Shown: positions 18,227 to 58,137 of the stretch, piece after piece | Position numbering within the stretch: position 1 is the stretch's first letter | Layout of the letters: every line of letters starts with the position of its first letter | Assembly: GCA_045545095.1 (NCBI GenBank) | Contig: JAZQAG010000049.1 | Location: forward strand, 1,213 to 65,212 | Source of the DNA: Phocaeicola sp. | GTDB taxonomy: Bacteria > Bacteroidota > Bacteroidia > Bacteroidales > Bacteroidaceae | Direction of reading: 5' to 3' | Length of the DNA: 64,000 nucleotides | The notes under the pieces: model-generated | What the model was told of the DNA's origin: nothing | Seen by the model: the letters and a program-made list of their open reading frames with translations, nothing else | Database searches by the model: none | Position numbers and translations under genes: made by a program

Positions 18227-18236
18227 AATATTCTAT

Positions 18237-18360
18237 TAATTATGAATTATTAATTATGAATTATGATTTAAAACAAAATATGAATTATGAATTACGAACC
18301 GTGAGACACGCCTTACAGCACAGCCTCATAATTCACAATTCATAATTCATAATTATAAGA
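18237..18360. repeat. heptad tandem repeats (AATTATG-type) in inverted blocks forming a long hairpin in the rpsB-tsf spacer
   Basis: aattatg/aattatt x4 at 18244-18267. tgaattatgaatt (18281-18293) is perfectly complementary to aattcataattca (18337-18349). Right block is cataatt cacaatt cataatt cataatt. Confidence 0.8.
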
Positions 18361-18361
18361 A

Positions 18362-19189
18362 TTAAGCCTCTTCTTCTGTAGCAGCAGGAGCCTCAGCTGT
18401 CTCCTCAGCCTTCTCTACACGAGCCTTAGAAGCACCTCTTTTACGAGAGGGCTTCACGGGAGCTGCAGACTCACCAGCAGCCTCCATATCAACCTTCTCG
18501 GCCTTACGCTCTTCGAGTCCCTCCTGAATAGCAGTACAGCAAGCGTCGAGGATAACCTCGATTGACTTGGTTGCATCATCGTTAGCGGGGATAACGAAGT
18601 CGATGTCATTAGGATCAGAGTTAGTATCTACAATACCGAATACGGGGATACCCAAACGGTTAGCCTCGCGAACAGCAATGTTCTCCTTCAATACGTCGAT
18701 AACGAACAAAGCTGACGGCAGACGGCTCAGGTCGGCGATAGAACCGAGGTTCTTCTCCAACTTGGCACGCTGACGAGAGATTTGGAGAATCTCACGCTTA
18801 GAAAGGTTTGAATAGGTACCGTCGCTGGTCAACTTGTCGATAGTTGCCATCTTCTTCACAGCCTTGCGGATAGTGGGGAAGTTGGTCAACATACCACCGG
18901 GCCAACGCTCGATAACGTAGGGCATATTTACAGATGCAGCTTTCTCAGCTACCACCTGCTTTGCTTGTTTCTTAGTAGCTACAAACAGGATTCTCTTTCC
19001 TGATTTTGCAATCTGCTTCAAAGCCTCAGCGGCTTCATTTACTTTAGCAGCTGTCTTGTGGAGGTCAATGATATGGATACCATTGCGTTCCATGAAAATA
19101 TAAGGAGCCATAGCGGGGTTCCACTTTCTCTTCAAGTGACCGAAGTGGCAACCGGCTTCCAACAGTGTATCAAAATTAATTCTTGACAT
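18362..19189 (-). CDS. rpsB: 30S ribosomal protein S2
   Basis: MSRINFDTLLEAGCHFGHLKRKWNP...; canonical S2 with an acidic/Ala-rich tail. Confidence 0.95.
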   Translation of the reverse strand: MSRINFDTLLEAGCHFGHLKRKWNPAMAPYIFMERNGIHIIDLHKTAAKVNEAAEALKQIAKSGKRILFVATKKQAKQVVAEKAASVNMPYVIERWPGGMLTNFPTIRKAVKKMATIDKLTSDGTYSNLSKREILQISRQRAKLEKNLGSIADLSRLPSALFVIDVLKENIAVREANRLGIPVFGIVDTNSDPNDIDFVIPANDDATKSIEVILDACCTAIQEGLEERKAEKVDMEAAGESAAPVKPSRKRGASKARVEKAEETAEAPAATEEEA

Positions 19190-19321
19190 TTTGTTTTCTT
19201 TTTTTAATCGTTTACTTTCTTTTTAGCTATTCTGCCTTGCGGCATTTTGTTCACCAACCGTCAGGTAGTCTTTTGTCCACGAAGAATCCTGTCGGTTTAG
19301 ATTCTAAACGCTATTCGATTT

Positions 19322-19408
19322 CAGTTCTTAAGTTCTTGAGTCTTTAAGTTTATGAGTTCCTTTAAAGAATTGCACCAACCTAACAACCAACAAACTGACA
19401 AACTCAAA
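19322..19408. repeat. two blocks of degenerate ~7-nt repeats in the rpsI-rpsB spacer
   Basis: agttctt-like units at 19322-19360 and acaacca/acaaact-like units at 19374-19408, directly after the rpsI stop. Confidence 0.5.
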
Positions 19409-19795
19409 TTAACGCTTACTGAACTGGAATCTTCTACGTGCTTTGGGACGACCCGGTTTCTTACGCTCAACAGCACGGGGATCGCGAGTCATGAAGCCTT
19501 CTGAACGAAGAGTCTTCTTGTCCTCAGGATTGATCTTCACCAATGCGCGGGCAATAGCCAAGCGCAAAGCCTGTGACTGTCCGGTGAAACCACCGCCACA
19601 AAGATTCACTTTGATATCATATTTCTCAGCCACTTCCAACTTGTTCAAGGGCTGCTTCACTACATACTGCAGGATTGTTGAGGGGAAGTACTGAGTCAGG
19701 TCTCTCTTGTTGATAGTAATCTTACCAGTACCCTCGGTAACGAATACGCGGGCAATAGCGCGCTTACGTCTTCCTAATGCGTTTATTACTTCCAT
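19409..19795 (-). CDS. rpsI: 30S ribosomal protein S9
   Basis: 128 aa ending ...GRPKARRRFQFSKR; canonical S9. Confidence 0.95.
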   Translation of the reverse strand: MEVINALGRRKRAIARVFVTEGTGKITINKRDLTQYFPSTILQYVVKQPLNKLEVAEKYDIKVNLCGGGFTGQSQALRLAIARALVKINPEDKKTLRSEGFMTRDPRAVERKKPGRPKARRRFQFSKR

Positions 19796-19800
19796 GTTGC

Positions 19801-20262
19801 TTATTTCAGTGTATTAATATCAATAGACTTAGGTGACTGAGCCTGATGCTTGTGTTCGCTACCTACGTAGATATAGAGGTTAGCCAACTGCTGAGCAGCC
19901 AAACGGTTCTTGGGCAACATACCCTTTACCACCTTCTTAAACAATCTCTCATGACCGTTAGGACGGGCAATCAAAGCCGCGGGAGTCATCTCGCGCTGTC
20001 CACCGGGATAACCGGTATGACGCAGATAAACACGGTCTGTCCACTTGTTTCCTGTCAATACAACTTTGTCGGCGTTGATGATGATTACATTATCGCCGCA
20101 ATCAGCGTTGGGAGTGAAGTTAGGTTTGTACTTTCCTCTCAACAGTTTCGCAACTTTCGCACCGAGACGGCCCAAAACCTGATCGGTAGCGTCAACAACG
20201 ACCCATTCTTTGGTCGCAGTTTCCTTGTTTGCAGAAATGGTCTTGTAACTTAAAGTATCCAC
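19801..20262 (-). CDS. rplM: 50S ribosomal protein L13 (apparent GTG start)
   Basis: KEWVVVDATDQVLGRLGAKVAKLLRGK is the canonical L13 N-terminus. Confidence 0.95.
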   Translation of the reverse strand: MDTLSYKTISANKETATKEWVVVDATDQVLGRLGAKVAKLLRGKYKPNFTPNADCGDNVIIINADKVVLTGNKWTDRVYLRHTGYPGGQREMTPAALIARPNGHERLFKKVVKGMLPKNRLAAQQLANLYIYVGSEHKHQAQSPKSIDINTLK

Positions 20263-20595
20263 TCTTTTAAAACTTTTAATTTGTTAACTACTAAAAAACT
20301 TCTTAGCCACACCCCTGCGCCCCATCGGACACAAAAAGACGCAGTAATGCGCTATAAATTAAACTTTTATCACTAATCTGATAATAATCGGCCTGCAAAG
20401 GTACGCATTTTTTCTCAACTAACAAGCGTTTTAATCCTCTTTTTTCAACCTTTTGCCAAAATGGAGAGTTACCCTACTTAAAAGAAATCCAAATCACAAG
20501 CGTACAAAAAGAGCTTTTAAAGACCAATTTTACCGCCCAGTAGATTAAAAGTTCTTTAAAAACAAATCATTTCATTTATACTGGATTCAGCCGGT

Positions 20596-22929
20596 TTATT
20601 TCTTGAACATCACCCCATCCACATGGTTTCCCACAAAAGCCGGGACAAAATCGGCCGTGCTGTACCAACGGGGCTTGCCCGGCATCTCATCATAAATAGC
20701 CTGGCCATTGATTTTCAGCCCCTCAAAGGTGACATTCTTCACCCGCCGTTCTTCATTATAACCATTGATGACAGACATGTAAGGTTGTGCACCATAGTAG
20801 CGGATATTGCGGAAGGTCACGTTCTCCACACCCCGACCAGGGGCAGTACAGTACTTCTGGTTATAGCCGACTTTCACGTGAAAGAGGCAACCTTGATGAA
20901 TCTGCTCAATGCGGATGTTATCGAAAAGCACATCCTTCACATAATTGTTGTCTCCACAATTGATGGCCATGCATCCCTGATAGTCCACCTGAGGTTCGCT
21001 TTGGCAAAGGATGTCGATGTTTTCATAGACAAGCCCCACGATACTGTCCTGCACATCAGAGTTACCATGTATGCCGATGAAGATGGGATGAGCCACATCT
21101 GCCCACAAGGTAGAGTTGGTCATGCGCACATTATAGACAGAGCCGTTGAAGCCTTTGCGTGTGGCATAAGCGGTAGTGCAATCATCGGAGGTGCGACAAA
21201 ACACCCTGTCGTAAAGCACATTACTGGAAGCGAAGACATTCAGGCCGTCTCCCCACGAAGGATGCGAAATACTCCGTACATCATGCAGGGTCACCCCGTT
21301 GCTCTCCCCTACAGGGCAGGTATTCAGGATAAGACCATCAATAAGGACATTGCGGCTACGGTACACATGACATCCTTCATAGCCATGAGGCGGACGAGCC
21401 ACACCACGGCCAAGGATACTCACATTCTTTGCATCCTCGATGGCAAAGGTGCCAGTGAAGTAACTTCCCCCTGCCAGATAAACAGTGGTATTGGAAGGCA
21501 CCCGGATGGTATCTTGGGTATAAAGCCCCGGTTCGTATGCCACAAATCCGCGCCCCTCTTTGCGGGCCTGCTTCTCTGCCACCTCTTGAGCAACAGGCGG
21601 TTTGGAAGTAAACAACAAGAGATTATCTGTAATGCAACCGTCAAACTCCACACTCACATTCTCTGGTTGGAAAAGCAAGAACTGTACTGTTGAATCGTTT
21701 TGCACATTGGCTATCACTCCGCGGTAATCGGGACGGATACGTGCCTCACTGAATTTCTTATTCTTGCACACCACGCGTACATAGACATCACCTGTGAAGT
21801 CGAAGAAAGCGTATGAAATTTCGGAGATCTTATGTCTATTGTCTCCGACAGGTGCATTCACTTTGGCCATATAGGTGTCGATGCGTGTCCATTCATCCAC
21901 CCCGCGCGGACGGATAAACACATCGTAGTCCCCTTTTAAAGGTGCGCCTTCAGGAGCCGGATAAGTGAATACAGAATGTATTTTTGCCCCCTCCTTTACA
22001 CCTGGAGCACGTGTTTCACGACTTTCACCCCGCTTTTCGGCTTTTGCTTGCAGGGCGAGCACTTTCTTGGTATAGGGCATCTTCATGCCTTTCCTCTCTA
22101 CATAGTGCTTGTAAGGAAGTTCGTAGATATCCCACAAACGTCCACGACCCATTTCACCAGGTATTACCCAATCATTGTACAGACCAGTGCAATCTGTCCA
22201 TGCCTTAAAGGGAACATCATATCCAAGATTGTATCGGGCAGTATATTCAAATCCCTTCATCAGACGATTGTCCAATGCACCCCATAAATCATCACCTTGT
22301 CCCCAAGCCATTTCGCAGATGTGTGCGAGGGCTTCAAGACCCAGCTGGGCATGATTCTGGTCGCGACCAGTTTCCTGGCATTGCCCCGTTTCGCTAATAT
22401 AATTAGGTAAAGAACCATTATCATTAGCTGTCAAATAGTAGTCAATCGCTGCACGATAGATGGTAGTATCTTCAAGGAAAATGCCACATGCCATACGCAA
22501 GCGGTTGACGATGGCACCCCAATTCCCATTGGCGTATGGACTGTCTGCCTCAAACTTATTCATCATAGGAAGCAAAGCACGATGCACCATCTCATCCCAT
22601 TGGGAAGTACGGTGTTCCTTCATTAATATCATTGCTTTTACAAGATCATAGCACTGGATGGCACAAAGTGGCGCATCGTGCCCGTCGAGCTGTTGCAACG
22701 TTGTAGCGTATGCATTGATAATTTCCAATGCTTTTTCTCCATATCCCTTTTGAGCACACTCAAATGCCGCTTTCATATCGCGTTCACTTCCACCTTTAGA
22801 GTGGCGGTATTGTCCGTCGCGAGCAATCACTTCGTAAGGACCGGCCATTTGATAATCTATTTGCGCTTGAAGGTCACTTGCAAGAAAAAGCAAACAGAAT
22901 ATTGAAAGAAGAATCACCACCTTTTTCAT
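20596..22929 (-). CDS. two-domain enzyme: alginate-lyase/heparinase-type alpha/alpha-toroid lyase-like domain fused to a GH28/GH49-like right-handed beta-helix domain
   Basis: Signal peptide. The N-terminal half has ETGRDQNHAQLGLEALAHICEMAWGQGDDLW, paralogous to the next gene. The C-terminal half has beta-helix repeats with GDGLNVF...RTSDDC. The family assignment needs an HMM search. Confidence 0.6.
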   Translation of the reverse strand: MKKVVILLSIFCLLFLASDLQAQIDYQMAGPYEVIARDGQYRHSKGGSERDMKAAFECAQKGYGEKALEIINAYATTLQQLDGHDAPLCAIQCYDLVKAMILMKEHRTSQWDEMVHRALLPMMNKFEADSPYANGNWGAIVNRLRMACGIFLEDTTIYRAAIDYYLTANDNGSLPNYISETGQCQETGRDQNHAQLGLEALAHICEMAWGQGDDLWGALDNRLMKGFEYTARYNLGYDVPFKAWTDCTGLYNDWVIPGEMGRGRLWDIYELPYKHYVERKGMKMPYTKKVLALQAKAEKRGESRETRAPGVKEGAKIHSVFTYPAPEGAPLKGDYDVFIRPRGVDEWTRIDTYMAKVNAPVGDNRHKISEISYAFFDFTGDVYVRVVCKNKKFSEARIRPDYRGVIANVQNDSTVQFLLFQPENVSVEFDGCITDNLLLFTSKPPVAQEVAEKQARKEGRGFVAYEPGLYTQDTIRVPSNTTVYLAGGSYFTGTFAIEDAKNVSILGRGVARPPHGYEGCHVYRSRNVLIDGLILNTCPVGESNGVTLHDVRSISHPSWGDGLNVFASSNVLYDRVFCRTSDDCTTAYATRKGFNGSVYNVRMTNSTLWADVAHPIFIGIHGNSDVQDSIVGLVYENIDILCQSEPQVDYQGCMAINCGDNNYVKDVLFDNIRIEQIHQGCLFHVKVGYNQKYCTAPGRGVENVTFRNIRYYGAQPYMSVINGYNEERRVKNVTFEGLKINGQAIYDEMPGKPRWYSTADFVPAFVGNHVDGVMFKK

Positions 22930-25900
22930 TTTCGAATAATTTTTCTACCATTTACAATATAAATACCTCCCTTTGCACGCACAACATCTATACGGCGCCC
23001 TTGCAAATCATAAGCATCATCATTTTCGCTATTTACGATTCCGCCAGCGACCACTTCATCTACACCAAGTGCGGGCTCAATAGGAATAATCAAGAAAGGA
23101 TATCCAGGAAACTCTGTCAACTCTGTATTGATACTACCATCGGAATTCATATCCCAATATTTTTTAGTAGCCTCTGTAAGTCCTGTGCGAATGGCATAAC
23201 GGTTAACCCCAGCTGCCTGTTCAAAATAGAAACTATACAAACTGGCGCTACCCAATTTGCCATTAGCAAAGAGCGGCAAACTATCAGCTACAACGGTCAT
23301 ACTGTGTCGCACAGAGGAATTACTAATTTTCCAAATTTGATGAGCCTCTGGTTGGTTTACATCTCCTTTTTCAAAGGAAACCAATTCGCCTGAAGCATGC
23401 CCCGTGAGAAGACGTCCCGTGCCTGCATGGCAAACAAGATAATATCCGGGAGTAAGAATGGATTGTTCTGCAGATTTTACCAAGACCTTAAACACCACCT
23501 CAACAGTCTCACCTTCCATTGTGAATGAAGCGGTATAATCGCCACTTGTTTCTAACCCACTGATGGTAATCTTACTACCCTGTTCTCCCGTACTCCAAGT
23601 GACACAGCTTGCCGGCACAGAGGGCGACAAGTTTAATCCAAGAGTCACCTCTTCACCTGCATTGACAATACATTCTGATGCTTGTATTGTTTCACCCGCT
23701 TTCTCAATATAAGGTGAGGCAGCTATTACATTCACATGGAAAGTACAGGCGCTGACGGCTGAGCCTTGGTTTATATAATATAAGGTATAGGTACGCGGAG
23801 CTACGACAGGAGTGGTAGTGATGCTTTGCGTAGTCTGTCCCGTTGACCACTGATATGTTCCCCATCCACAAGAAGGAACTGCTGTCAAGGTAACACTTTC
23901 GCCATAAACCACATTGATGGTATCTGTCCCTGTAATAGTCTGGCCATTGTAAGTCACACTGGGAGTGAGCATCGTCAGATTGCAATCATTCTCTGCGGCA
24001 ATAGAGAAACACTGTTGGCTTTTCACCCCCTTTCCGTTAGTATATGTCACACGATAAACATAACTTCGGTCAGTTGTTACAGTAATTTCACGTGTCTGCT
24101 CACCCGTTTCCCATTGCCAAAGTCCTGTATCCTCCTCCCCTTCGGGCAATTGGGGTATCAGTTTCACAGTTTCTCCACGGGGCACACAAGTCTGGTTATT
24201 GACTGCAAATGTATTTACCAATCCTCCTAATTCACTATGTGCAATCTGCTTACCACTGACGTTCCCCAAATTCTGTTCTACACCAATACTGGGAATGATA
24301 TTGGCTGTAAGCGTACCGCTATACTCCATACGAGGCGACAATTCCGTGGGAACTTGATCAGCAGATGCCAACTGCACATCACGCGTATTCATCAATACGC
24401 TATATCCCATGTGGTCATATCCGCCACTGGTCGTACCCATGCCACCTGCATCTATACCCATGCTATTGTAGGAGTTTTCCGAGAAAGGCATTTTCACGCC
24501 CTTCACTCCTTCATAAATGCCAATGACAGTGCCCCAATAAGGACGCATCTGCGCTCCAAGGGCAGGACCAGTCATCACCCATGCACGGCTGTCCGAGTAG
24601 TAATATCCGCTGCTGCCATATATGTAGTTTGTCCAAGGCAGGCTGGCCACACTCTGCGTCTGTGCAGCCACGTATTCAATACCGGCAGCCAAACGGTAAT
24701 CCATATAGGCAAAGAGATCATCACCTTGATTCCATCCGACTTTAGCCACATCAATAGCCAATCCCAATGCCATAGCCGAATGGCCTGTATCGCGTCCGCT
24801 TTCGTTCATCTGCCCCAGTTTGCCATAAGCCCCTGTTTCAAGTTCGCTGTCCACATGGGTGACCACCAGATTACCGAGGTATTCAGTCAACCCGTCATTC
24901 TTAATGGGATTATCCGTACGTGGGTCATGGAAATTGCCCACCTGGTCATACTTGAAGTAAGACATTCCCTGATTGTAGATATAGACATCGTCGCACAAGA
25001 TTCCGATGCTGATGACGCACATGACATTGCAAAGTCCCCAATTCGACCAATAATGTCCTGGTGCTTGCCACCATTTGCCAGCATTTTCCCACGTCCCATT
25101 ACGTCCACGCAGAAAACCTATAGCACTGGGGTACCACACAGAGAGCATCCATTGTTTGAATGTATTGAACTCCTTGCGGTTCCACCCCTCATAATCACGC
25201 ATCAGCTCGGCCGCTTGGGCAAACTGATAGCCGTAAAGACCGGCTGCCAGTGCATAGTTACTGTCTCCGCCAATGGCTTTGGTCGTATTTGCCCATGCCA
25301 TCAGAATACGTACAGCCGCATCGGCACAAGCCTTATTGTCCTCAATCTTCCATCGCAGGGCATTCTGATAAGCCATCGTGGCTCCACGTGCAGCATTGAT
25401 ATAGTTTTCCCCCACTCCACCACCGCGTACGATGGTCTCAACCGGCCAAGTCTGCACACCCGGCTGGGCATATTCCGCCTTTTTCAATATCTCGTAAGCC
25501 GCCTTCACTTTTTCGTTTCCTTCCGCCAACTGTCGACGCACGCGGTCAAAGTCCGCTTGCGTATGCAATCCGCCCGGATGAGTGAACCCACGGTCTGTAT
25601 CGTATGCCTCGATTGCATCGCCCACAGTCGGAAGGACTACATTAGCCGTAGATTTTACCTGAGCAACGACCTGTTTCAGTTGTGCACATATCTTGTCAAC
25701 GTAAGTTTGACTATACTCTCCTGCAGCTACACGCTCAGCCATCGTTATCATTCCGTTCAAATCAGCCAATGCATCGGGCAGATAAGAGACTGTACTCCCT
25801 GCCAACTGTTTTGCCTCGGCAATAGCGGTTTTCAACTGACTGACATCCCCCGTTGTGCCATAGAGATAGGCCTCCTCCAATGCTGATATCTCGGAAGCCA

Positions 25901-26615: not shown

Positions 26616-26626
26616 ATTTATTGTTT

Positions 26627-27835: not shown

Positions 27836-28045
27836 TTGATGTTCTTGTTTTTCATGATTTTCTTGCAAATATACATTATTCACGGCAAATACATACCGTT
27901 TCTGCTGTCTAAAAATGCAAAACAATCGTCCAAACAAATATTTGGACAATTGTTACAGCCATTATTATACGATTTTAGCACCTCACGGATAGTTTTCTTA
28001 CAAAATAAATGTTACCTTTGCGGATAATTATCGTAATAATTGTTT

Positions 28046-30253: not shown

Positions 30254-30387
30254 ATCTTGCCATATCCGATTCAAGGGAACAACAATATTAAAAAACGCTC
30301 TTCACCAAGGAACGTTTTGCTTATTTTTGCGTCATCATAGCAGAAAGTGACAAACTACGGGCAAAAAAGTCAGTAAAGAAGAGAGAA

Positions 30388-30879
30388 ATGAATACCAGAG
30401 AGTTTGAGACATGGGTGCGGAGGCTGCGCCCGTCGTTGCAGGCCGTCGCGAGGCGGATGCTGGCCGACGAGGACGATGCCGAAGATGCCGTGCAGGATGC
30501 GCTGCTGAAATTGTGGCTCGTCCGCGACCGTCTGAATCTCTACCGCTCGCCCGACGCGCTGGCTGTGGTGGTCGTGAAGAATCTCTGCATCTCGCGATGG
30601 AGGGAGCGGCAAGCCGAGGCGTTGCCTTTGTCTGAAGATGTGGACATAGGGAGTGGACGGACTCCTGACCAAGAGTTGGAGGAGCGCGAAAACCACACGT
30701 GGCTCTGCCGCACCATCCAGGGACTGCCCTCGGCACAGATGACCATCCTGAAAATGAGTCAGGCCGAGGGGATGAGCAACCGACAGATTGCCGACGTGTT
30801 GGGCATCACTGAGACCTCCGTCCGCACGGCCCTTTGCAAAGCCCGGCACAAGCTGTTGGAGGAATTGAAGAAGAGGTGA
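30388..30879 (+). CDS. ECF-type RNA polymerase sigma factor
   Basis: DAEDAVQDALLKLW (region 2) and EGMSNRQIADVLGITETSVRTALCKAR (region 4 HTH). Confidence 0.85.
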   Translation: MNTREFETWVRRLRPSLQAVARRMLADEDDAEDAVQDALLKLWLVRDRLNLYRSPDALAVVVVKNLCISRWRERQAEALPLSEDVDIGSGRTPDQELEERENHTWLCRTIQGLPSAQMTILKMSQAEGMSNRQIADVLGITETSVRTALCKARHKLLEELKKR

Positions 30880-30934
30880 AAGGTCTAAGGTCAAAAGCCA
30901 TCGCCATTAGCCATCGCCATCGCCTTCAGCCATT
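30880..30934. repeat. hexamer tandem repeat (GCCATC-type) in the sigma/anti-sigma spacer
   Basis: aaggtc taaggtc, then gccatc gccatt a gccatc gccatc gccttc a gccatt. Confidence 0.75.
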
Positions 30935-30954
30935 AAAAATAAAATAGAACATAT

Positions 30955-31440
30955 ATGATAAACCAATTAATTGACCGATACATGAATGGCCTCACCTCGC
31001 CCGAGGAGCAAAAGCGGCTGCACCGCCTGCTGATGGTCGATGATCTGCCCGAGGAGTATCTGCCCTATCGCGAAATGTTCACCCTGTTGGGTGAGCCGAT
31101 GGAGGTTCCCTCTGACAAGGAGTTGAAGGATTTTGCCCAAGCGAACCAATTGGAGGTGGCCGAGACGGAAGAAGGGCACATCATCGCCTTGCGCCCGTGG
31201 TTGCGCTACGCAGGCATTGCAGCTTCGCTCGTGCTTGTCTTCTTGGCCGGGCGATGGTCGGTTGGGGAGAATCCGAAGGTGATTGTACACGAATTGCCCG
31301 AAACGGACTTGGCACAATACAACGACCTTTTCACGACTGAGACAGGCACGACCATCGAAGAGGCGTTCAATGCTTGCGAAGAGGAAATGACAGACTTTGA
31401 ATATAATTATATAAACTCCAATCCACATGAAGAATTATAA
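30955..31440 (+). CDS. putative single-pass anti-sigma factor
   Basis: Directly follows the ECF sigma gene. The N-terminus IDRYMNGLTSPEEQKRL parallels the 56428-56946 protein. One TM (YAGIAASLVLVFLAG). Confidence 0.45.
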   Translation: MINQLIDRYMNGLTSPEEQKRLHRLLMVDDLPEEYLPYREMFTLLGEPMEVPSDKELKDFAQANQLEVAETEEGHIIALRPWLRYAGIAASLVLVFLAGRWSVGENPKVIVHELPETDLAQYNDLFTTETGTTIEEAFNACEEEMTDFEYNYINSNPHEEL

Positions 31441-32422
31441 TGAGTTACGAGTTACGAGCTACGAGCTACGAGTTACGAGCGACAAGCTACGAGTAGGGGT
31501 CATCACTGCGCTGTTGTTCCTATTGGGCTTTGGCACGGCTATGGCTCAAGAGCGGGACTTTAAGAATCGGACATTTTATGAGAATTGGGAACTCTCAAAC
31601 CTCTTCTGGGACTTGAAGCTGAATTTCTCCCAAACGTACCTCATCCGTCAGACGAACGACTGGATAATCTACGACCTGAACTATTGGTTTACAAGCGAGA
31701 AGGACAGGCTGACACGCCAGCAGTGGCCTGACCACATCTTTGCCCAATTGGACAAACTGAAGACTCTACGCAAATTTACCGAATCCATTGAAGAGAAGGG
31801 GAAATACTACAAGAAGTACACCCTCACTACGCAATCGGCTCAAGAGGGGCAAATAGACTTCGTCACGCTGGAAGTGGGAGACAACAAAGTGAGTTTTCAG
31901 TATAAAGCCAATGCTGATGTGAACGGCAAGCGTCTGCCCGTCTCCATGCCAAAGGCGAATGAGATAAAAGGGAAGATGGAGGCCCTTTACCGCCCATACA
32001 TCGCAAGGAAGAATGTCAGGGAGCAACAGGTGACCTACGACTGGAACCTCCGCAAATACCATCGGAGCATTGCGGCCGACAACACCACCAAGGTGACACG
32101 GGCCACCCGATACCGCATTCCTGCCTGCACCCAAAAGGAGTATGAGGCTGTGGTGAGACACTTCCAGCAGATACAGCAACAGTACAACGTGTTCATGGCT
32201 ACGAACGATGTCTTTTGGGAGTACGAAGAGACGGCTATCGCCTTCCGCGACGATGACGGACGCCTCCATACCTATGGCGTGGCGCTGAAGCCCGACGGCA
32301 CCCTCTATCTGATAGAGAGCCATGCAGGCGCTCTTCCCCGTCTGTGGGCCGAAGACAATGCAGTGTGGGAGGACAATGTGCGCAAGCGTCCTCATTACCG
32401 CACACCAGAAAATGAAAAATAA
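31427..32422 (+). CDS. secreted protein of unknown function (ECF operon member) with a heptamer repeat in the signal-peptide coding region
   Basis: ATG overlaps the upstream stop. MKNYNELRVTSYELRVTSDKLRVGVITALLFLLGFGTAMAQ is signal-peptide-like. No family recognised. Confidence 0.55.
   Translation: MKNYNELRVTSYELRVTSDKLRVGVITALLFLLGFGTAMAQERDFKNRTFYENWELSNLFWDLKLNFSQTYLIRQTNDWIIYDLNYWFTSEKDRLTRQQWPDHIFAQLDKLKTLRKFTESIEEKGKYYKKYTLTTQSAQEGQIDFVTLEVGDNKVSFQYKANADVNGKRLPVSMPKANEIKGKMEALYRPYIARKNVREQQVTYDWNLRKYHRSIAADNTTKVTRATRYRIPACTQKEYEAVVRHFQQIQQQYNVFMATNDVFWEYEETAIAFRDDDGRLHTYGVALKPDGTLYLIESHAGALPRLWAEDNAVWEDNVRKRPHYRTPENEK
31442..31497 (+). repeat. imperfect heptanucleotide tandem repeat (GAGYTAC x ~8) inside a CDS
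   Basis: gagttac gagttac gagctac gagctac gagttac gagcgac aagctac gagtagg, read directly from the sequence. Confidence 0.9.
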
Positions 32423-32442
32423 TCAAAAAACTATATCTGAAT

Positions 32443-33366
32443 ATGAAGACAAACATCATCATCGCCACACTGGCAGCCTGTATGTTGCTGCATGGCAATC
32501 CCCTCATGGGACAAGGCTTCTCCTTGTCAAACCTCTTTGGAAACAACGACAAGATAGAGGCTTCGAAGAAAACAGTTACGTATGAATTGGAGAACCCTGA
32601 ACGTTTCAACCGCATCCAATTTGCAGGTAGCGGCACCGTGGAGTATCGCCAAAGCTCGGACGGACAGACACGCGTGACCGTAACCATAGCTGAGAATGTG
32701 CGTGACTACGTAGAGGTGGAAGTGAAGAATGGCACTCTCAGTAACCGATGGAAGGCGATAAACACCACCATCACAGGCGACTCCAAACTGAAAATCGTAT
32801 GCGAAAGTCCGCAGATTGAAGTTGTGGATATGTCTGGTAGTGGAAAAGCTTACCTTATGAATACCATTACCGACCGAAGACTCGCTCTCAGAGTGGCAGG
32901 CTCGGGCATCATCAAGACCTCCACATTGCACCTTGAAGAGAACCTGCAATGCGATGTGGCAGGAAGCGGACACATTGAAGTGGGTGAAGGATATGCAGGA
33001 GAGGTCGCCTCATTCAGCATTGCAGGTAGTGGTAAAATCAATGCCAACCGTTTGAAGGCCAAAGAGGTCGCAGCCCGCATATCCGGCAGTGGAGACATCA
33101 ACCTGCAAGGAACTGTCCAAAAGGCCAACCTACAGACTACAGGTAGTGGTGAAATCCATGCCCATGAATTGAAAGCAGAGAACGTGTATGCCAAAGTCAC
33201 CGGTTCAGGCGACATTGATTGCTACGTCACCAAAGAGTTGACCACCAAAGTCACAGGCAGTGGCGAAATCACCTACAGCGGCAATCCCTCCGTCATCAAC
33301 TCCAACAATGTGAAGAGGTCCAACAGAAAACAAGTCGATACGGAAGAGGTCATGGAAGGGCTATAA
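32443..33366 (+). CDS. DUF2807 / head GIN domain (putative adhesin-like beta-solenoid) protein
   Basis: Signal peptide plus regularly repeated V.GSG.I units (VAGSGII, VAGSGHI, IAGSGKI, ISGSGDI, TTGSGEI, VTGSGDI, VTGSGEI). Confidence 0.75.
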   Translation: MKTNIIIATLAACMLLHGNPLMGQGFSLSNLFGNNDKIEASKKTVTYELENPERFNRIQFAGSGTVEYRQSSDGQTRVTVTIAENVRDYVEVEVKNGTLSNRWKAINTTITGDSKLKIVCESPQIEVVDMSGSGKAYLMNTITDRRLALRVAGSGIIKTSTLHLEENLQCDVAGSGHIEVGEGYAGEVASFSIAGSGKINANRLKAKEVAARISGSGDINLQGTVQKANLQTTGSGEIHAHELKAENVYAKVTGSGDIDCYVTKELTTKVTGSGEITYSGNPSVINSNNVKRSNRKQVDTEEVMEGL

Positions 33367-33398
33367 GCATAAAAGTTTTAATAATAAGACTATTAGCG

Positions 33399-33438
33399 CC
33401 TTGCATCGATGCGACATCGGTGCAAGGTTGTTTTTTTT
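33399..33438 (+). terminator. rho-independent terminator
   Basis: ccttgcatcgatg-cga-catcggtgcaagg followed by ttgtttttttt. Confidence 0.7.
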
Positions 33439-33507
33439 CTATTTGCTTCGTTTCCCTATCTCTTGCGGAAAGAAAACAGTCTCTTTATATCGGCAGAATC
33501 AACATTT

Positions 33508-34401
33508 ATGACTAATTTTGCAGCCGCAAAAAAAAGAGATTGGCTGATGAATACGATTTGGATAGTGATGCCGATCCTTATTGTGCTGATGTTCCTGCTG
33601 GGGACAGAACTCAATAAGGAGGCCTTTGTAAATGTGGCCCGCCACCCCAAGGCAGTCGCGTTGGGTATGACGGGGCAGATAGTCCTGCTGCCCGCCATAG
33701 CTTTCGCCCTTGCGTGGCTGTTGGAGGTCCCCCCTGTATATTTTATGGGACTGGTGCTGGTAGCCTGCTGCCCCGGGGGAAGTTCGTCGAATGTGTTTTC
33801 CATGCTGGCCAAGGGCGATGTGGCCCTGTCGGTGACACTCACGGCCGTGAGCAGCATCGTGACACTCTTCACGCTTCCTGTCATTATGGAACTGACGTCG
33901 CACTTTGTTTCGCACAATGCGGGTATATCCATCGAACTGCCCGTTGGAAAACTGCTGGTACAGAATATCGTCCTGCTGTTTGTCCCGCTGATGGCGGGGT
34001 GGCTGTTCCGACGTTGGAAGCCCATATTGGCAGAGAAGGTGAGCAAGGTGCTCAACAAACTGGCATTTCCCGCACTGATGACGTTGGCGTTGCTGTTTTT
34101 CCTGCAATATACCCAAGAGATTATCGACAATTTCCGATTGATAGGTATGGCATGTGGTTTGCTCATCTTGGCAAGCATGGCCTGCAGTTCCCTGCTTGCA
34201 CGGGTGGGCAGGCTGACAGATGCTGTGCGCCGCACCATCGTCATCGAGGTGGGTATGCAGAATGCGGCACAAGCCATCGCCATTGCCACCTCCCCATTTA
34301 TCTTCAACAGTGGAGAGATGGCCATCCCTGCCATCATCTATGCACTGCTGATGAACGTGATATTGTTGCTTTACATACTGAAATTCAAACATTCAAGTTG
34401 A
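33508..34401 (+). CDS. bile acid:sodium symporter (BASS) family transporter
   Basis: LVACCPGGSSSNVFSMLAKGDVALSVTLTAVSS and multiple TM segments. The start could be the ATG at 33508 or at 33547; the track start at 33409 is upstream of the terminator context. Confidence 0.8.
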   Translation: MTNFAAAKKRDWLMNTIWIVMPILIVLMFLLGTELNKEAFVNVARHPKAVALGMTGQIVLLPAIAFALAWLLEVPPVYFMGLVLVACCPGGSSSNVFSMLAKGDVALSVTLTAVSSIVTLFTLPVIMELTSHFVSHNAGISIELPVGKLLVQNIVLLFVPLMAGWLFRRWKPILAEKVSKVLNKLAFPALMTLALLFFLQYTQEIIDNFRLIGMACGLLILASMACSSLLARVGRLTDAVRRTIVIEVGMQNAAQAIAIATSPFIFNSGEMAIPAIIYALLMNVILLLYILKFKHSS

Positions 34402-34430
34402 CAAGGGTACAAGTCAACTAAAAAAAGCAT

Positions 34431-35126
34431 ATGGCAAAGAAAGAGAAGATAAAGAGCATGTTTGACAACATTGCCCCCGACTATGACAAGCTGAACCACA
34501 TCATGTCGCTGAACATCGACAAAGGGTGGCGCCGGAAGGCAGTGCGCGAGATGGCAGATACTGACAAGCCGCTCGCAGTGCTCGACGTGGCCTGTGGTAC
34601 GGGTGACTTCACCATCGAGATTGCACGCAAAGTGTCCAAAGGGAGCCGCATCATAGGTATCGACCTGTCAGAAGGGATGATGAAGGTGGGCCGTGAGAAG
34701 ATTGCCACCGCCCAAGTGGATGCCACATTGGAATATGGCGATTGCGAAGCCCTGACGTATGCCGATGGCACTTTTGACCGCATATCCGTAGGTTTCGGCG
34801 TGCGCAATTTCGAGCATCTGAGCATCGGACTGGAGGAGATGTGCCGCGTGTTGAAACCAGGCGGAAAACTGGTAATCTTGGAATTGTCCGTCCCCTCCAA
34901 CCCCATTATCCGTTGGTGCTACAAGCTCTACTTCCTGCACATCCTGCCAGCCATTGGTGGCATGGTGTCAGGCAATCGGGGGGCATACGAGTACCTGCCT
35001 GCATCGGTCCTTCATTTCCCTGCACCCGACAAGTTCATCCCAATGATGCGCGAGGCCGGCTTCAGCGAAGTGAAACACCAACCTCTCACTTTCGGCATTT
35101 GCAGAATGTATGTTGGAATAAAATAA
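34431..35126 (+). CDS. ubiE: demethylmenaquinone methyltransferase (UbiE/MenG)
   Basis: MFDNIAPDYDKLNHIMSLNIDKGWRR...VLDVACGTGD...GFGVRNF is a canonical UbiE/MenG pattern. Confidence 0.9.
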   Translation: MAKKEKIKSMFDNIAPDYDKLNHIMSLNIDKGWRRKAVREMADTDKPLAVLDVACGTGDFTIEIARKVSKGSRIIGIDLSEGMMKVGREKIATAQVDATLEYGDCEALTYADGTFDRISVGFGVRNFEHLSIGLEEMCRVLKPGGKLVILELSVPSNPIIRWCYKLYFLHILPAIGGMVSGNRGAYEYLPASVLHFPAPDKFIPMMREAGFSEVKHQPLTFGICRMYVGIK

Positions 35127-35127
35127 T

Positions 35128-35233
35128 GTGTTAATATGCCAATGTGCTAATGTGCCAATGACCATGCGGCACGATAGCATTAAACATTTACACATTGTCA
35201 CATTAACATATTAGCACATTGGCATATTAACAT
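35128..35233. repeat. octamer-repeat inverted repeat forming a long hairpin in the ubiE-menA spacer
   Basis: The 33-nt arms at 35128-35160 and 35201-35233 are complementary with 4 mismatches. A perfect 23-bp core pairs tgttaatatgccaatgtgctaat (35129-35151) with attagcacattggcatattaaca (35209-35231). The arms are built from CAYATTRR units. Confidence 0.85.
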
Positions 35234-35251
35234 ATAGCACATTAGCATATT

Positions 35252-36127
35252 ATGATCAAAAACTGGATAGAGGCCATGCGCCTTCGTACACTACCCGTCA
35301 GCATGGCGGGCGTGCTTGCCGGATGTGGTTGTGCCCTGTGGCAGGACGGATTCTCCATCGTGCCGGCACTGCTTTGCCTGCTGTTTGCCCTGTCGGCACA
35401 GATTGCCTCCAACTTCGGCAATGAATACTATGATTACAAGAATGGTATGGACCGCAAGGGGCGCGAGGGGTTCCGACGCGGAGTGACTGAGGGAGACATC
35501 ACCCCGCAGGCCATGAAGCGTGCCACCTTTGCCATGTTGGGCATAGCGGCTGTCATCGGCTGTTCGTTGCTGCTGTATGGCGGCCTGTGGCTCATCCCTG
35601 TCGGTTGTGCCATCCTGTTGTTTGCCCTTGCTTACAGCGCTGGTCCCTACTCACTTTCTCATCATGGATTGGGCGATGTCACAGTAGTTGTCTTTTTCGG
35701 CATCGTCCCTGTCACCTTCACCTGCTACCTTCAGACAGGGGGATGGGAGGAATTGTCCGTACTGCTTACCACCTCCGTTGCCATCGGACTCTTGGCAGCC
35801 AATGTCCTCGTTGTGAACAATTATCGCGACATGGAAGATGATGAGGCTGTGGGGAAACGAACGACGGTTGTACTCTTCGGGCGTAAGGTCATGGGCTATG
35901 TTTATCTGCTTTCGGGCATCGCAGCTATGGCCATCATGACAGCCTTGTGGATACAGTTACCCCTATGGGCACTCATCGTTCCCATTATCTATCTGTCACT
36001 ACACATCACTACCTGGCGTAAACTTATCCACAGTCGGGGTGCTGCGCTCAACCCCCTGCTTGGGCGGACGGCTATCAACCTGCTCGTCTTCACAGTCCTG
36101 TTGCTGATGGTGTTGGCGGTAGTGTGA
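35252..36127 (+). CDS. menA: 1,4-dihydroxy-2-naphthoate polyprenyltransferase
   Basis: WIEAMRLRTLPVSMAGVLAG, NEYYDYKNG and NNYRDMEDD are UbiA-superfamily MenA motifs. Confidence 0.9.
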   Translation: MIKNWIEAMRLRTLPVSMAGVLAGCGCALWQDGFSIVPALLCLLFALSAQIASNFGNEYYDYKNGMDRKGREGFRRGVTEGDITPQAMKRATFAMLGIAAVIGCSLLLYGGLWLIPVGCAILLFALAYSAGPYSLSHHGLGDVTVVVFFGIVPVTFTCYLQTGGWEELSVLLTTSVAIGLLAANVLVVNNYRDMEDDEAVGKRTTVVLFGRKVMGYVYLLSGIAAMAIMTALWIQLPLWALIVPIIYLSLHITTWRKLIHSRGAALNPLLGRTAINLLVFTVLLLMVLAVV

Positions 36128-36133
36128 TTTTTA

Positions 36134-36823
36134 TTATACCAGCCCCCTCACCAAAAACCACAGCACGGGGACAAGCAGGGCGGGGAGCATGTTCAGCGTC
36201 TTACAATCTTTCAGTTTGAGGAGGGAAAGGCCTGAGGCGACAATCATCAGTCCGCCGACGATGAGCAACTCTGCCATGAGTGCTTCGCTGATGGCGGTAC
36301 TTGACAGCTTTGCCACCAAGTAGAACATCCCCTGCCAACAGAAGAGTACGGGTGCGGCCAGTATCATCCAAATGCCGTAGGTACTGGCAAAGACGGTGGA
36401 TGTCACCAAGTCGAGCGTGGCATTGGTATAGAGGAAGGTGTTGTCGCCCTTCAAGGCACTTATCACAGGGCCGAGCATGGCCAAGGGGCCAATGCAGTAG
36501 AGCAGGATGGCGGTGGAGAGACCGTCGGCCAAGTTGGTGTTCTTATTGCCCTTTGAACGTTTGTTTACCAAAGCGGCAAACCGCCCGTCGAGATCCAGCG
36601 CCGTGCCTACCACACTTCCGATGGCTATCGACACGATGAAGAGCACTGGGTATTCGCTCTTACCGAAGTTGCTTATCACCGCATTGAGACCGATACCCAA
36701 GCAGGCCAGCCCCAATCCAGTGTATAGCGTGTCCTTATACTTTTCCTTAATCCCTCTGTTCATTACAGCACCCACAATGCTGCCCACGATTATCGTGCAA
36801 GTGTTTACGATTGTTCCTATCAT
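36134..36823 (-). CDS. DUF554 family membrane protein
   Basis: MIGTIVNTCTIIVGSIVGAVMNRGI... and multiple TM segments. Start set to the ATG at 36823, because the longer track ORF overlaps the upstream gene. Confidence 0.7.
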   Translation of the reverse strand: MIGTIVNTCTIIVGSIVGAVMNRGIKEKYKDTLYTGLGLACLGIGLNAVISNFGKSEYPVLFIVSIAIGSVVGTALDLDGRFAALVNKRSKGNKNTNLADGLSTAILLYCIGPLAMLGPVISALKGDNTFLYTNATLDLVTSTVFASTYGIWMILAAPVLFCWQGMFYLVAKLSSTAISEALMAELLIVGGLMIVASGLSLLKLKDCKTLNMLPALLVPVLWFLVRGLV

Positions 36824-36834
36824 TTCCGGTTCAT

Positions 36835-37431
36835 TTATTGATTCTTCTTCAACCACTCCTGACGACGCAAGTCTGGCAGGTGTTTGATGTTGAAATGTTC
36901 GAATTTGGCTTTGAAACCGTTTCCATCGGGAGATGCAGCCATCAGACCAACCATAACGGGCGTATTGTCTTGAATCCAACAATTGCGCATCATGATGTAT
37001 TTCTTATCATCGAAGGAATAGAAGATTTCCACGGCATCCAATCGACGGACTGCTTTAATCCAGACAAAGGGGACAGGATGCTCAAGTTGGATGACACTCC
37101 AGTCACTCGTGTGATGAGTGACAACCGTACTGAGATTGTACTTTCCGTCCACATACTCAATACCCGTCTTGACATAGTTCTCCTTGTCCACCCGAATCAT
37201 CAGGCCAGCCTGATCAAAACGTTCTTTATATTCGCCGGAGACCTTCACCTTCACTTCGAACTCACCACCCCGCAAAGTGTAGAGGAAGGGAGCATCATCG
37301 ACAGTAAATCCGTAATGCGATATGCGCCAATAATCACTTTGGGGAGTTGCGTCTATATAAAGTGTTCCTTCCTTAATTTCCCAACTCTCAGGTTCATTGA
37401 ACCACTGCATTTTATCTAAAGAGTGTGCCAT
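36835..37431 (-). CDS. DUF1349 (concanavalin-A-like) domain protein
   Basis: MQWFNEPESWEIKEGTLYIDATPQSDYWR is the typical DUF1349 N-terminus. Confidence 0.7.
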   Translation of the reverse strand: MAHSLDKMQWFNEPESWEIKEGTLYIDATPQSDYWRISHYGFTVDDAPFLYTLRGGEFEVKVKVSGEYKERFDQAGLMIRVDKENYVKTGIEYVDGKYNLSTVVTHHTSDWSVIQLEHPVPFVWIKAVRRLDAVEIFYSFDDKKYIMMRNCWIQDNTPVMVGLMAASPDGNGFKAKFEHFNIKHLPDLRRQEWLKKNQ

Positions 37432-37495
37432 AGTTGTAGCTGCCAACAGTTTGTAACAATTAATCTACGTATCTTTTTACAGTAATTTCTGTCTG

Positions 37496-37527
37496 CAAAA
37501 ATAGCACAAGGCCATGACTTATCCAAA
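37496..37527 (-). promoter_or_regulatory. Bacteroidota-type promoter TTTG-N20-TATTTTTG for the DUF1349-DUF554 pair
   Basis: The minus strand reads tatTTTGgataagtcatggccttgtgcTATTTTTGcag, which matches the -33 TTTG / -7 TAnnTTTG consensus and spacing. Confidence 0.55.
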
Positions 37528-37544
37528 TATAAGTACTACATTCC

Positions 37545-38306
37545 TTATTTTCTTACAATCAGGATGCTGACCTCATAGAGCAGCCACATGGGGAGTGCGA
37601 CAAGCATCAGCGTAAAGACATCAGAGGTGGGAGTAATTATGGCTGCAATGATGAGCAGCACTACAATGACGTGGCGACGATAATGACTCATCAACGCGGC
37701 ATTGATGAAGCCCATACGGCCAAGCACCCAACAGATTACAGGTATCTCGAAAACTATCCCCATAGAGAGGCTTACGGTCATCAGAGTCTCCATATATGAA
37801 TCAATGGTGACGGTGTTGGCTACTACGTCACTCACCTGATAGGTTCCCAGGAAACGGAATATCAACGGGAATATCAGGTAATAGCTGAGCAGCACACCAA
37901 GCATGAACATGATGTATCCACTAACCACCAGCCGGATGGCATATTTGCGCTCATGGGTATAGAGTGCAGGGGAAATGAAATGAAAAAGCAGGTATATAAG
38001 ATAAGGAGACGTGAGCAAGATACCGGCACAGACTGAAGCCTTCACATGGAGCAGGAACTGACGCGCCAACCCGATGTTGATAAGTTGCACATCCCATGCG
38101 CCCACGTCTGACAATCCATCAGGAAACAGAGAGGCTGCAATCTGTTCCAACAAACGATAGGTGATGAAGCCGCTATCCTGTGGAGCCAGAATAATATCGA
38201 ACAACTCGTCCTTGAAGAAAAAGGAGATGACAGCGCACACCACCACTGCAACAACCATCTTTATCAGGCTGCCACGCAATTCATCAAGATGTTCCCAAAA
38301 GGTCAT
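37545..38306 (-). CDS. tatC: twin-arginine translocase subunit TatC
   Basis: MTFWEHLDELRGSLIK... and a six-TM pattern; canonical TatC. Confidence 0.9.
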   Translation of the reverse strand: MTFWEHLDELRGSLIKMVVAVVVCAVISFFFKDELFDIILAPQDSGFITYRLLEQIAASLFPDGLSDVGAWDVQLINIGLARQFLLHVKASVCAGILLTSPYLIYLLFHFISPALYTHERKYAIRLVVSGYIMFMLGVLLSYYLIFPLIFRFLGTYQVSDVVANTVTIDSYMETLMTVSLSMGIVFEIPVICWVLGRMGFINAALMSHYRRHVIVVLLIIAAIITPTSDVFTLMLVALPMWLLYEVSILIVRK

Positions 38307-38310
38307 GAGT

Positions 38311-38466
38311 TTATTTCTCTTCCTTTTCTGTCCCGTTCATTCCGTCTTTGAAGCTACGCACTCCTTTACCCAAACCTTTCATCAGTTCAGGTATCTTTTT
38401 ACCTCCAAAGAAAAGAAGAACAATCAGGGCAATAATGATAATTTCTTGAAATCCTATTCCAAACAT
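38311..38466 (-). CDS. tatA: twin-arginine translocase subunit TatA/E (51 aa, below the ORF-track cutoff)
   Basis: My own translation is MFGIGFQEIIIIALIVLLFFGGKKIPELMKGLGKGVRSFKDGMNGTEKEEK. This has a TM segment, an FGG hinge and an amphipathic helix. The stop lies 4 nt before the tatC ATG. Confidence 0.85.
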   Translation of the reverse strand: MFGIGFQEIIIIALIVLLFFGGKKIPELMKGLGKGVRSFKDGMNGTEKEEK

Positions 38467-38470
38467 GGTT

Positions 38471-38512
38471 TGATTTATGATTTGTGATTTATGATTTGTG
38501 ATTTATGATTTT
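38471..38512. repeat. heptamer tandem repeat (TGATTTR x6) immediately 5' of the tatA start codon
   Basis: tgattta tgatttg tgattta tgatttg tgattta tgatttt. The sense (minus) strand reads as G-free AAATCAY units ending 4 nt before the ATG. Confidence 0.9.
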
Positions 38513-38534
38513 ATGTTCTGACTCTGAACAACCT

Positions 38535-48556: not shown

Positions 48557-48640
48557 CTCCCCATGCGAATAGGAGTCAAAACACCAAACCACTAAATTTA
48601 CACCTAATTTGGTGGTTGCAACCACTAATTTTACTATAAA

Positions 48641-48672
48641 TTTGGCGGTTTGAGAGAAATGTCCTACTTTTG
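48641..48672 (+). promoter_or_regulatory. Bacteroidota-type promoter TTTG-N20-TACTTTTG for the ATPase gene, overlapped by tandem hairpins
   Basis: TTTG at 48641-48644 and TACTTTTG at 48665-48672. Two related hairpins (ccactaaattt..aatttggtgg and ccactaatttt..aaatttggcgg) span 48590-48648. Confidence 0.55.
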
Positions 48673-50889: not shown

Positions 50890-50936
50890 CTCATTCATCA
50901 CCTCGTCAACAGAAACCTTGTCAACTATTCAGGTCA

Positions 50937-54537: not shown

Positions 54538-54563
54538 ATCTGACTAAAGAGAAAAGTTTAATC

Positions 54564-54636
54564 ATCGACGATAACTATATAAACATCGTCGATAATCACA
54601 TAGTCATCGTCGATGATTATATAAACATCGACGATG
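54564..54636. promoter_or_regulatory. four CATCGWCGAT palindromic boxes phased at exactly 21 bp upstream of the HU-like gene
   Basis: Boxes at 54564-54573, 54585-54594, 54606-54615 and 54627-54636. The last two extend to the 11-bp perfect palindrome CATCGWCGATG. Confidence 0.5.
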
Positions 54637-54659
54637 ATTAAAGTTTCATGCAAAGCGAT

Positions 54660-57443: not shown

Positions 57444-57500
57444 TCAGGCGCGGACTACGCGGATGAAGGAACAATTCCAATCCGTGTAGTCCGCGCCTGA
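57444..57500. terminator. 20-bp-stem hairpin between convergent genes (REP-like, related to 58087-58137)
   Basis: tcaggcgcggactacgcgga pairs with tccgtgtagtccgcgcctga, with one G-T pair. The loop is 17 nt. Confidence 0.6.
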
Positions 57501-58086: not shown

Positions 58087-58137
58087 TTGGCACGGATTAA
58101 CGCGGAGTCTTATCATAACCCGTGTAATCCGCGCCAA
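58087..58137. repeat. REP-like imperfect hairpin sharing the GCGCGGAYTA core with 57444-57500
   Basis: ttggcacggattaacgcgg ... ccgtgtaatccgcgccaa. Confidence 0.5.

What the first reader, a model, noticed from the sequence alone, without database searches (positions are those of the whole stretch)
18237..38512. Recurrent theme: locus-specific 6-8 nt degenerate tandem repeats at junctions between co-directional genes
At least six gene junctions in this window carry short-period tandem repeats, each with its own unit:
- rpsI/rpsB (19322-19408);
- rpsB/tsf (18237-18360, AATTATG-type);
- sigma/anti-sigma (30880-30934, GCCATC-type);
- anti-sigma/next ORF (31442-31497, GAGYTAC);
- ubiE/menA (35128-35233, CAYATTRR);
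- AKR/tatA (38471-38512, AAATCAY on the sense strand).

Several are C/A/U-rich and nearly G-free on the mRNA strand and end within a few nt of the downstream start codon. Two are arranged as inverted blocks that form long hairpins. Bacteroidota lack Shine-Dalgarno-dependent initiation. Unstructured CA/AU-rich repeat leaders, or hairpin-plus-leader units, could therefore tune re-initiation, mRNA processing or stability inside operons. Their repeat nature also makes them potentially length-variable.
Basis: partly seen in the sequence, partly recalled or inferred. Interest (0 to 1): 0.6.

Follow-up and report, generated by a model that had tools for sequence, protein, structure and literature searches.

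The report
Empty repeat-armed cassettes at operon junctions
The short repeats between genes are the arms of small hairpin-shaped DNA inserts. Most are gene-less versions of cassettes that elsewhere carry a tiny gene, and they come and go between related species, so they look like selfish passengers of operons rather than purpose-built translation tuners.

Summary
All six arrays are real. They are not locus-specific: the genome holds about 234 intergenic arrays, mostly 7-9 nt (about 1 expected), in recurring unit families, enriched at co-directional junctions. A G/T-rich arm follows the stop codon and its complement precedes the next start. All 5 four-helix-bundle (23S-IVS-protein family) genes sit between such arms. 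In sister species GxxExxY and DUF559 genes sit between their own arm types. Orthologous junctions are bare, empty-armed, gene-filled or hold another arm family, even when the flanks are 98-100% identical. Protein clade tracks arm family across junctions (18/18). Same-family empty hairpins lie at the junction next to 3 of 5 cassettes. Best reading: empty or decayed forms of small palindromic selfish cassettes, mostly neutral and sometimes co-opted (terminator-like slot at rpsB/tsf; signal-peptide codons). No mobilising enzyme was found, and no RNA data were available. Similar repeat patterns are published, and this scan reported the armed four-helix cassette before on other DNA. The turnover, arm-cargo matching and local spread add to that.

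The parts
18326..18358 (-). rpsB/tsf left arm (AATTATG x~5 on mRNA), starting 7 nt after the rpsB stop
18234..18298 (-). rpsB/tsf right arm (CATAATT type, two blocks); ends 7 nt before the tsf ATG
18270..18279 (-). U-tract between the two right-arm blocks; follows an alternative 35 kcal/mol hairpin (terminator-like)
19322..19405 (-). rpsI/rpsB degenerate 8-mer two-armed hairpin directly after the rpsI stop
19190..19315 (-). conserved rpsB (S2) leader motif, separate from the repeats; present in relatives that lack the repeats
30881..30934 (+). sigma/anti-sigma: short AAGGTC-type left remnant plus (A)GCCATC-type right arm; longer in G008, replaced by a CCCTCC hairpin element in G012
31442..31494 (+). 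GAGYTAC left-arm array starting at the anti-sigma stop but translated in frame in the signal-peptide n-region of ORF 31427-32422; 21 nt shorter in two relatives
35124..35160 (+). ubiE/menA left arm, octamer AATGTGCY, overlapping the ubiE stop
35162..35169 (+). CCATGCGG inner-arm module, shared by several arm families
35178..35252 (+). ubiE/menA right arm, RCAYATTR type, running to the menA ATG
38471..38511 (-). AKR/tatA lone right arm AAATCAY x5.9, ending 4 nt before the tatA ATG; 7-14 nt shorter junction in relatives
57444..57500 (.). further empty hairpin of the 9-mer CGCGGAT type (the arm type of GxxExxY cassettes in relatives)
58087..58137 (.). second 9-mer-type empty hairpin

Best explanation
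The arrays are the arms of small palindromic insertion cassettes that colonise stop-to-start junctions of core operons. The full form is: G/T-rich tandem arm, small promoterless gene (four-helix-bundle/23S-IVS family for most units in this window; GxxExxY or DUF559 nuclease-fold genes for other arm types), complementary arm. Most copies, including all six here, are gene-less hairpins or single-arm remnants. Shown: the anatomy, presence/absence and replacement among sister species, gene-arm co-inheritance across junctions, deletion remnants, and local clustering of like arms. Inferred: (1) the cassette rides on operon transcription; when folded, its arms bring the upstream stop and downstream start back together and leave a short A-rich initiation region, so it is nearly neutral; (2) arm length changes by slippage, and the two arms are kept matched by arm-to-arm copying; (3) empties are spread, preferentially in cis, by the resident cassette protein acting on its own arm family on single-stranded nucleic acid, with host repair, as REP/RAYT and SRM/Ssn pairs are thought to work. 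Step 3 is the weakest (about 0.3 on its own). A few copies are co-opted: a terminator-like hairpin at rpsB/tsf and signal-peptide codons at 31442.
For: All 5 TIGR02436 genes in G000 lie between complementary arms. Arms are visible by eye at nearly all ~38 such loci in the genus. 15/15 GxxExxY loci have inverted arms, 14 of one 8/9-mer type, and the 10 DUF559 loci shown have C-run/G-run hairpins. Five of the six window units match arms of four-helix cassettes in G000 or the genus. Left and right units are complementary in 13/26 two-array spacers versus 2.7 expected. One junction is bare in G000, four-helix-filled in G007 and GxxExxY-filled in G009/G012/G035. G000 C42:57230 keeps only the end of the right arm of a GxxExxY cassette present in G009, with flanks 99% identical. 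C52:34643 has a 166-nt empty element where G012 has an overlapping stop/start, flanks 99-100% identical. Non-homologous elements co-occupy the same junctions (OR 3.8, p 6e-4). The nearest four-helix protein at another junction has the same arm family in 18/18 possible cases (63% vs 26% median identity). The octamer pattern has 36-128 matches in the 5 genomes with the octamer-armed cassette and 0-4 in the other 26; five of those checked are bare at that junction. Same-family empties lie at the next junction downstream of 3/5 cassettes (background 0.4-4%).
Against: No RAYT, reverse transcriptase or small GIY-YIG gene was found in G000 (91% complete). No catalytic activity is known to me for the four-helix protein. 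No clear target-site duplication was seen. No gene-filled version was found at any of the six window junctions. Only 3 of 14 junctions filled in relatives carry a called array in G000, plus 2-3 short remnants. The five octamer-rich genomes are close kin by rpsB, so that co-occurrence is largely one lineage, with G031 as the informative exception. Arm families were labelled by eye after I had seen the BLAST hits. The hot-spot test is confounded by core-gene bias. No movement was observed directly.
Confidence: 0.65

Rival explanations
1. The hairpins arise in place by slippage and template switching and persist where tolerated. Small genes insert afterwards into existing hairpins, so the arms are landing pads and not parts of a mobile unit.
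For: The heptamer units form a continuum of one-mismatch variants (174 arrays in one network). Copy number changes in whole units. Empties outnumber filled copies about 30 to 1. No mobilising enzyme was found.
Against: The ~125-nt ubiE/menA element, loop included, matches at 72-83% at several junctions in G000 and at many places in G004/G008/G009. A non-repetitive CCATGCGG module is shared (53 intergenic copies vs 2.2 expected). Protein clades keep their arm family at different junctions. Whole elements appear at junctions whose flanks are nearly identical and bare in a sister species.
Confidence: 0.2
2. The repeats are selected cis-regulatory leaders or processing and stability elements that tune re-initiation and mRNA turnover in SD-independent Bacteroidota operons.
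For: Enrichment at co-directional junctions and at codon-biased core genes (16/384 in the lowest vs 55/384 in the highest quartile). Right arms end a median 12.5 nt before the start. Bacteroidetes lack SD use and initiation depends on structure (PMC6847099). A hairpin plus U-tract is present at rpsB/tsf in 29 of 39 long junctions.
Against: Not conserved in position or sequence among close relatives. None in 72 short divergent spacers. No mRNA-strand G-U bias. Only 10/86 armed spacers have a hairpin plus U-tract, versus 34/150 unarmed. The same polarity occurs in Xanthomonas and Nostoc (PMC4692102), so it is not specific to Bacteroidota. It does not explain why cassette genes sit between the same arms.
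Confidence: 0.15

Closest known systems
ORF-bearing 23S rRNA intervening sequence (Coxiella S23p IVS; Warrier 2016, PMC4990558)
   Same: Same protein family (TIGR02436; PDB 2GSC hit at E 2e-23) inside a terminal stem with tandem heptamers of variable copy number
   Different: Here the elements sit between mRNA cistrons, are mostly gene-less and come in many arm families; RNase III excision is untested
GGGAATC / GGGGAYT heptamer repeats of Xanthomonas and Nostoc (Rehm 2015, PMC4692102)
   Same: Same placement rule: between aligned ORFs, G-rich after a stop, C-rich before a start, rare at divergent spacers
   Different: One G4-type unit per genome and no cassette gene named there; here more than ten non-G4 unit families tied to cassette genes
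TAACTGA repeats of Beggiatoaceae, Cyanobacteria and some Bacteroidetes (MacGregor 2015, PMC4679880)
   Same: G-poor heptamer arrays just upstream of start codons, inside ribosomal-protein operons; translational role proposed
   Different: Treated as single direct arrays of one unit; no inverted partner arm or cargo gene described
SRM/NTS repeats with Ssn nucleases (Chenal 2025, PMC11893778) and REP/REPIN with RAYT
   Same: A small gene flanked by its own palindromic repeat type, many gene-less copies elsewhere, protein-repeat matching
   Different: Cargo here is four-helix-bundle, GxxExxY or DUF559; no Ssn-sized GIY-YIG or RAYT was found in G000; the arms are tandem arrays

Membership tests
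23S rRNA IVS with S23p ORF | TIGR02436/PF05635 gene in the loop of a terminal stem | tested here: met
   Met for the 5 filled copies elsewhere in G000; the six window copies have no gene
23S rRNA IVS with S23p ORF | Located in a 23S rRNA helix | tested here: not met
   All lie between protein-coding genes
23S rRNA IVS with S23p ORF | Excised from RNA by RNase III | not testable with these tools
REP/REPIN-RAYT | Cognate Y1 HUH transposase (PF01797) in the genome | tested here: not met
   No match in G000, 91% complete
REP/REPIN-RAYT | Many extragenic palindromic doublets that are present or absent among relatives | tested here: met
SRM-Ssn | Small single-domain GIY-YIG gene flanked by the repeats | tested here: not met
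   The only PF01541 match is in a 625-aa frame
SRM-Ssn | Protein cuts or binds its cognate repeat as ssDNA | not testable with these tools
   Needs biochemistry; the arm-cargo matching is indirect
Intergenic heptamer long SSRs (Rehm 2015; MacGregor 2015) | 7-nt-dominated tandem arrays enriched between co-directional ORFs, with stop/start polarity | tested here: met
   153 of 234 intergenic arrays are 7-mers; polarity 48:12 vs 16:60
Phase-variable SSR | ON/OFF frameshifting length variation in a population | tested here: inconclusive
   Only 31442-31494 is coding; two relatives differ by 21 nt, which keeps the frame; no reads were available
Intrinsic terminator | Hairpin followed by a U-tract | tested here: inconclusive
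   Present at rpsB/tsf but not called by the consensus scan; absent at ubiE/menA and at 76/86 armed spacers
Known structured RNA (Rfam) | Covariance-model match | tested here: not met
   0 matches in 17000-40000

The most novel reading that the evidence does not exclude
Several unrelated small proteins (four-helix-bundle/IVP, GxxExxY, DUF559) each recognise their own arm type and actively seed gene-less copies into neighbouring stop-start junctions, competing for the same sites. This would be a transposase-free class of selfish element that accounts for the long-unexplained bacterial heptamer repeats and gives the IVS protein a function.
Probability: 0.3. Interest if true: 0.85.

Novelty: new variant of a known kind. 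Interest (0 to 1): 0.55.

Why it matters
Intergenic heptamer arrays have been reported in several phyla without an origin, and the 23S-IVS four-helix protein has no known function. This genus links the two and makes the link testable: each protein clade has a predicted cognate arm, sister species give bare, empty and filled versions of the same junction, and a Bacteroides octamer hairpin at rpsB/tsf (B. faecis, B. hominis) offers a laboratory-tractable case. It also warns against reading such repeats as evolved regulatory leaders.

Tried and rejected
No RAYT, reverse transcriptase, GxxExxY, DUF559 or small GIY-YIG was found in G000. Rfam gave nothing. The G-U vs A-C test gave no mRNA-strand bias. 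The G/T-left, C/A-right polarity reads the same on both strands for two-armed elements, so I did not use it as evidence of RNA function. CCATGCGG orientation shows no tie to GC skew (15 vs 21) and occurs in both directions on mRNA (22 vs 8). Flank identity is only weakly higher at armed junctions (p 0.09 and 0.02), so co-conversion is not claimed. An Avd relationship is from memory only; no Avd structure matched at E 0.1. No filled version of the six window junctions was found. Gene calls are my own dicodon model; some starts are off and two four-helix genes were missed by it.
Full report
Observation. The window is from a Bacteroidales genome (2.9 Mb, 91% complete; the nearest named rpsB relatives are Bacteroides and Phocaeicola at up to 89-91%). 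TRF recovers all six arrays. The hairpins at rpsB/tsf and ubiE/menA fold far better than shuffles (z -6.25, -7.15). rpsI/rpsB is a weak third hairpin (z -2.1) and the other three are single arms. The GAGYTAC array lies in frame inside ORF 31427-32422, ahead of the signal-peptide core, and two relatives have exactly 21 nt less. The rpsI/rpsB array ends 132 nt before the rpsB ATG, upstream of a conserved S2 leader that relatives keep without repeats. The units are not locus-specific.

Genome-wide pattern. A periodicity scan finds 234 intergenic arrays against 0-3 in shuffles, 153 of them 7-mers. Among spacers of 50-200 nt they occupy 86/638 co-directional, 4/126 convergent and 0/72 divergent ones (p 3e-7). 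Arrays near the stop are G-rich (48:12, median 7 nt away) and arrays near the start are C-rich (60:16, median 12.5 nt). Where two arrays share a spacer, the units are complementary in 13/26 cases against 2.7 expected. Armed junctions favour codon-biased core genes (16/384 to 55/384 across quartiles). A non-repetitive module, CCATGCGG, sits at the inner end of arms of several families (53 intergenic copies vs 2.2 expected; 34 of the CC-N4-GG words near arrays). It also separates sub-modules in compound clusters. Mismatches between arms are G-U and A-C equally often (97 vs 105).

Link to cassette genes. All five four-helix-bundle (TIGR02436) genes of the genome lie between complementary arms, wedged into operons. 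In an unbiased scan of 1,487 small ORFs for flanking inverted repeats, 10 passed: these five, four ordinary genes lying between two separate armed junctions, and one doubtful ORF. The same layout holds by eye at nearly all such loci in the genus. GxxExxY genes have 8/9-mer arms of their own type (15/15 armed), and DUF559 genes have C-run/G-run hairpins. Five of the six window units match four-helix cassette arms: AATTATG (G004), the octamer (G000 C16), GAGCTAC (G000 C31), GCCATC (G008) and AAATCAT (G033). Among 28 four-helix proteins, the nearest protein at a different junction has the same arm family in all 18 cases where that is possible (median identity 63% vs 26%; five families). I labelled the arms by eye after seeing BLAST hits, so this needs an automated repeat.

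Turnover. rpsB/tsf carries the heptamer in G000, G008, G009 and G012, the octamer in G004 and a third unit in G007, with tsf 96-99% identical. ubiE/menA is 125 nt in G000, 257 nt in G009 and 5 nt in G012 and G035, and short in 13/13 metagenome loci. sigma/anti-sigma has longer arrays in G008 and an unrelated hairpin element in G012. Comparing 332 junctions with G012 gives many clean swaps and gains, some with 98-100% identical flanks. Unrelated elements share junctions more than expected (OR 3.8, p 6e-4), although core-gene bias may contribute. One junction is bare, four-helix-filled or GxxExxY-filled in different species. Another keeps only the tip of a GxxExxY right arm in G000, which reads as a deletion remnant. 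The octamer is abundant (36-128 matches) only in the five genomes with the octamer-armed cassette; 26 others have 0-4, and the five of them checked are bare at that junction. These five are close kin, so G031 is the main independent contrast. In G000 a same-family empty hairpin sits at the next junction downstream of 3 of 5 cassettes (background 0.4-4%), and armed neighbours under 3 kb share a family 9/30 times against 3.0 expected.

How it most likely works. The full cassette has no evident promoter and is co-oriented with the host operon in nearly all loci. Folding of its arms would rejoin the stop and start regions and leave an A-rich initiation region, making insertion nearly neutral (inference). 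Empties arise by deletion (supported at two junctions) and perhaps by direct insertion; insertion of an empty and insertion of a filled copy followed by deletion cannot be told apart here. Local clustering and arm-cargo matching suggest that the resident protein acts on its own arms, preferentially in cis (inference, about 0.3). No RAYT, reverse transcriptase or Ssn-sized nuclease was found. Co-option occurs: across 80 Bacteroidales, 29 of 39 long rpsB/tsf spacers hold a hairpin plus U-tract of free sequence and only 9 of 80 use repeats. The G000 element offers such a fold, so it probably fills a terminator-like slot.

Relation to what is known. The placement rule is published for Xanthomonas and Nostoc (PMC4692102). 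Start-proximal heptamers with a proposed translational role are published for Beggiatoaceae and some Bacteroidetes (PMC4679880), and multicopy heptamer elements for Geobacter (PMC2700814). The gene-in-stem with heptamers is published for the Coxiella 23S IVS (PMC4990558), and gene-with-cognate-repeat systems for Ssn (PMC11893778). It works like these but fails membership of IVS (location), REP/RAYT and Ssn (enzyme). I found no paper joining the intergenic arrays to these cassette genes; the library searched is incomplete. I reached the cassette reading before consulting the scan's notes, which report it many times on other DNA; those notes are not counted as support, but they supplied four of the papers.

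Verdict. A real, genome-wide feature, best read as empty and decayed forms of repeat-armed selfish cassettes (0.65). In-place slippage with later gene capture gets 0.2, and a selected regulatory leader 0.15. New variant of a known kind; interest 0.55.

Noticed in passing
L307 and L358, rpsI-rpsB spacer: Heptamer arms appear inserted into the variable stem of the conserved S2 leader RNA, as a 23S IVS inserts into a helix tip.
   Followed up: partly
L294 and L297 (Bacteroides hominis, B. faecis), rpsB/tsf: The same AATGTGCC octamer hairpin, followed by a U-tract, sits at rpsB/tsf in cultured Bacteroides; a tractable test case.
   Followed up: partly
G000 C4:59666, C27:10262, C33:86733, C40:9491, C10:29757, C19:36243: Compound clusters in which a ~55-nt 9-mer module is bracketed by direct copies of CCATGCGG and left and right arms come from different families; the octamer may be a crossover point.
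   Followed up: partly
window 19190-19315: Conserved rpsB leader motif across Bacteroidales with no Rfam match at gathering score.
   Followed up: partly
window 38467-38534: G008 and G035 carry about 1 kb with two further ORFs between the AKR gene and tatA; G000, G009 and G012 lack them.
   Followed up: no
window 34402-34430 and 50890-50936: Short GTCAAC/ACAAG-type stretches that look like remnants of another 8-mer arm family.
   Followed up: no
window 54559-54640: Four palindromic boxes at a 21-bp period; unrelated to the arm families.
   Followed up: no
window 48587-48650: Two 33-bp direct repeats with internal palindromes in the spacer before ORF 48690.
   Followed up: no
G000 C7:39584-39767: A junction filled by four-helix cassettes in four relatives holds an unrelated short AT-rich hydrophobic ORF without arms in G000.
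   Followed up: no
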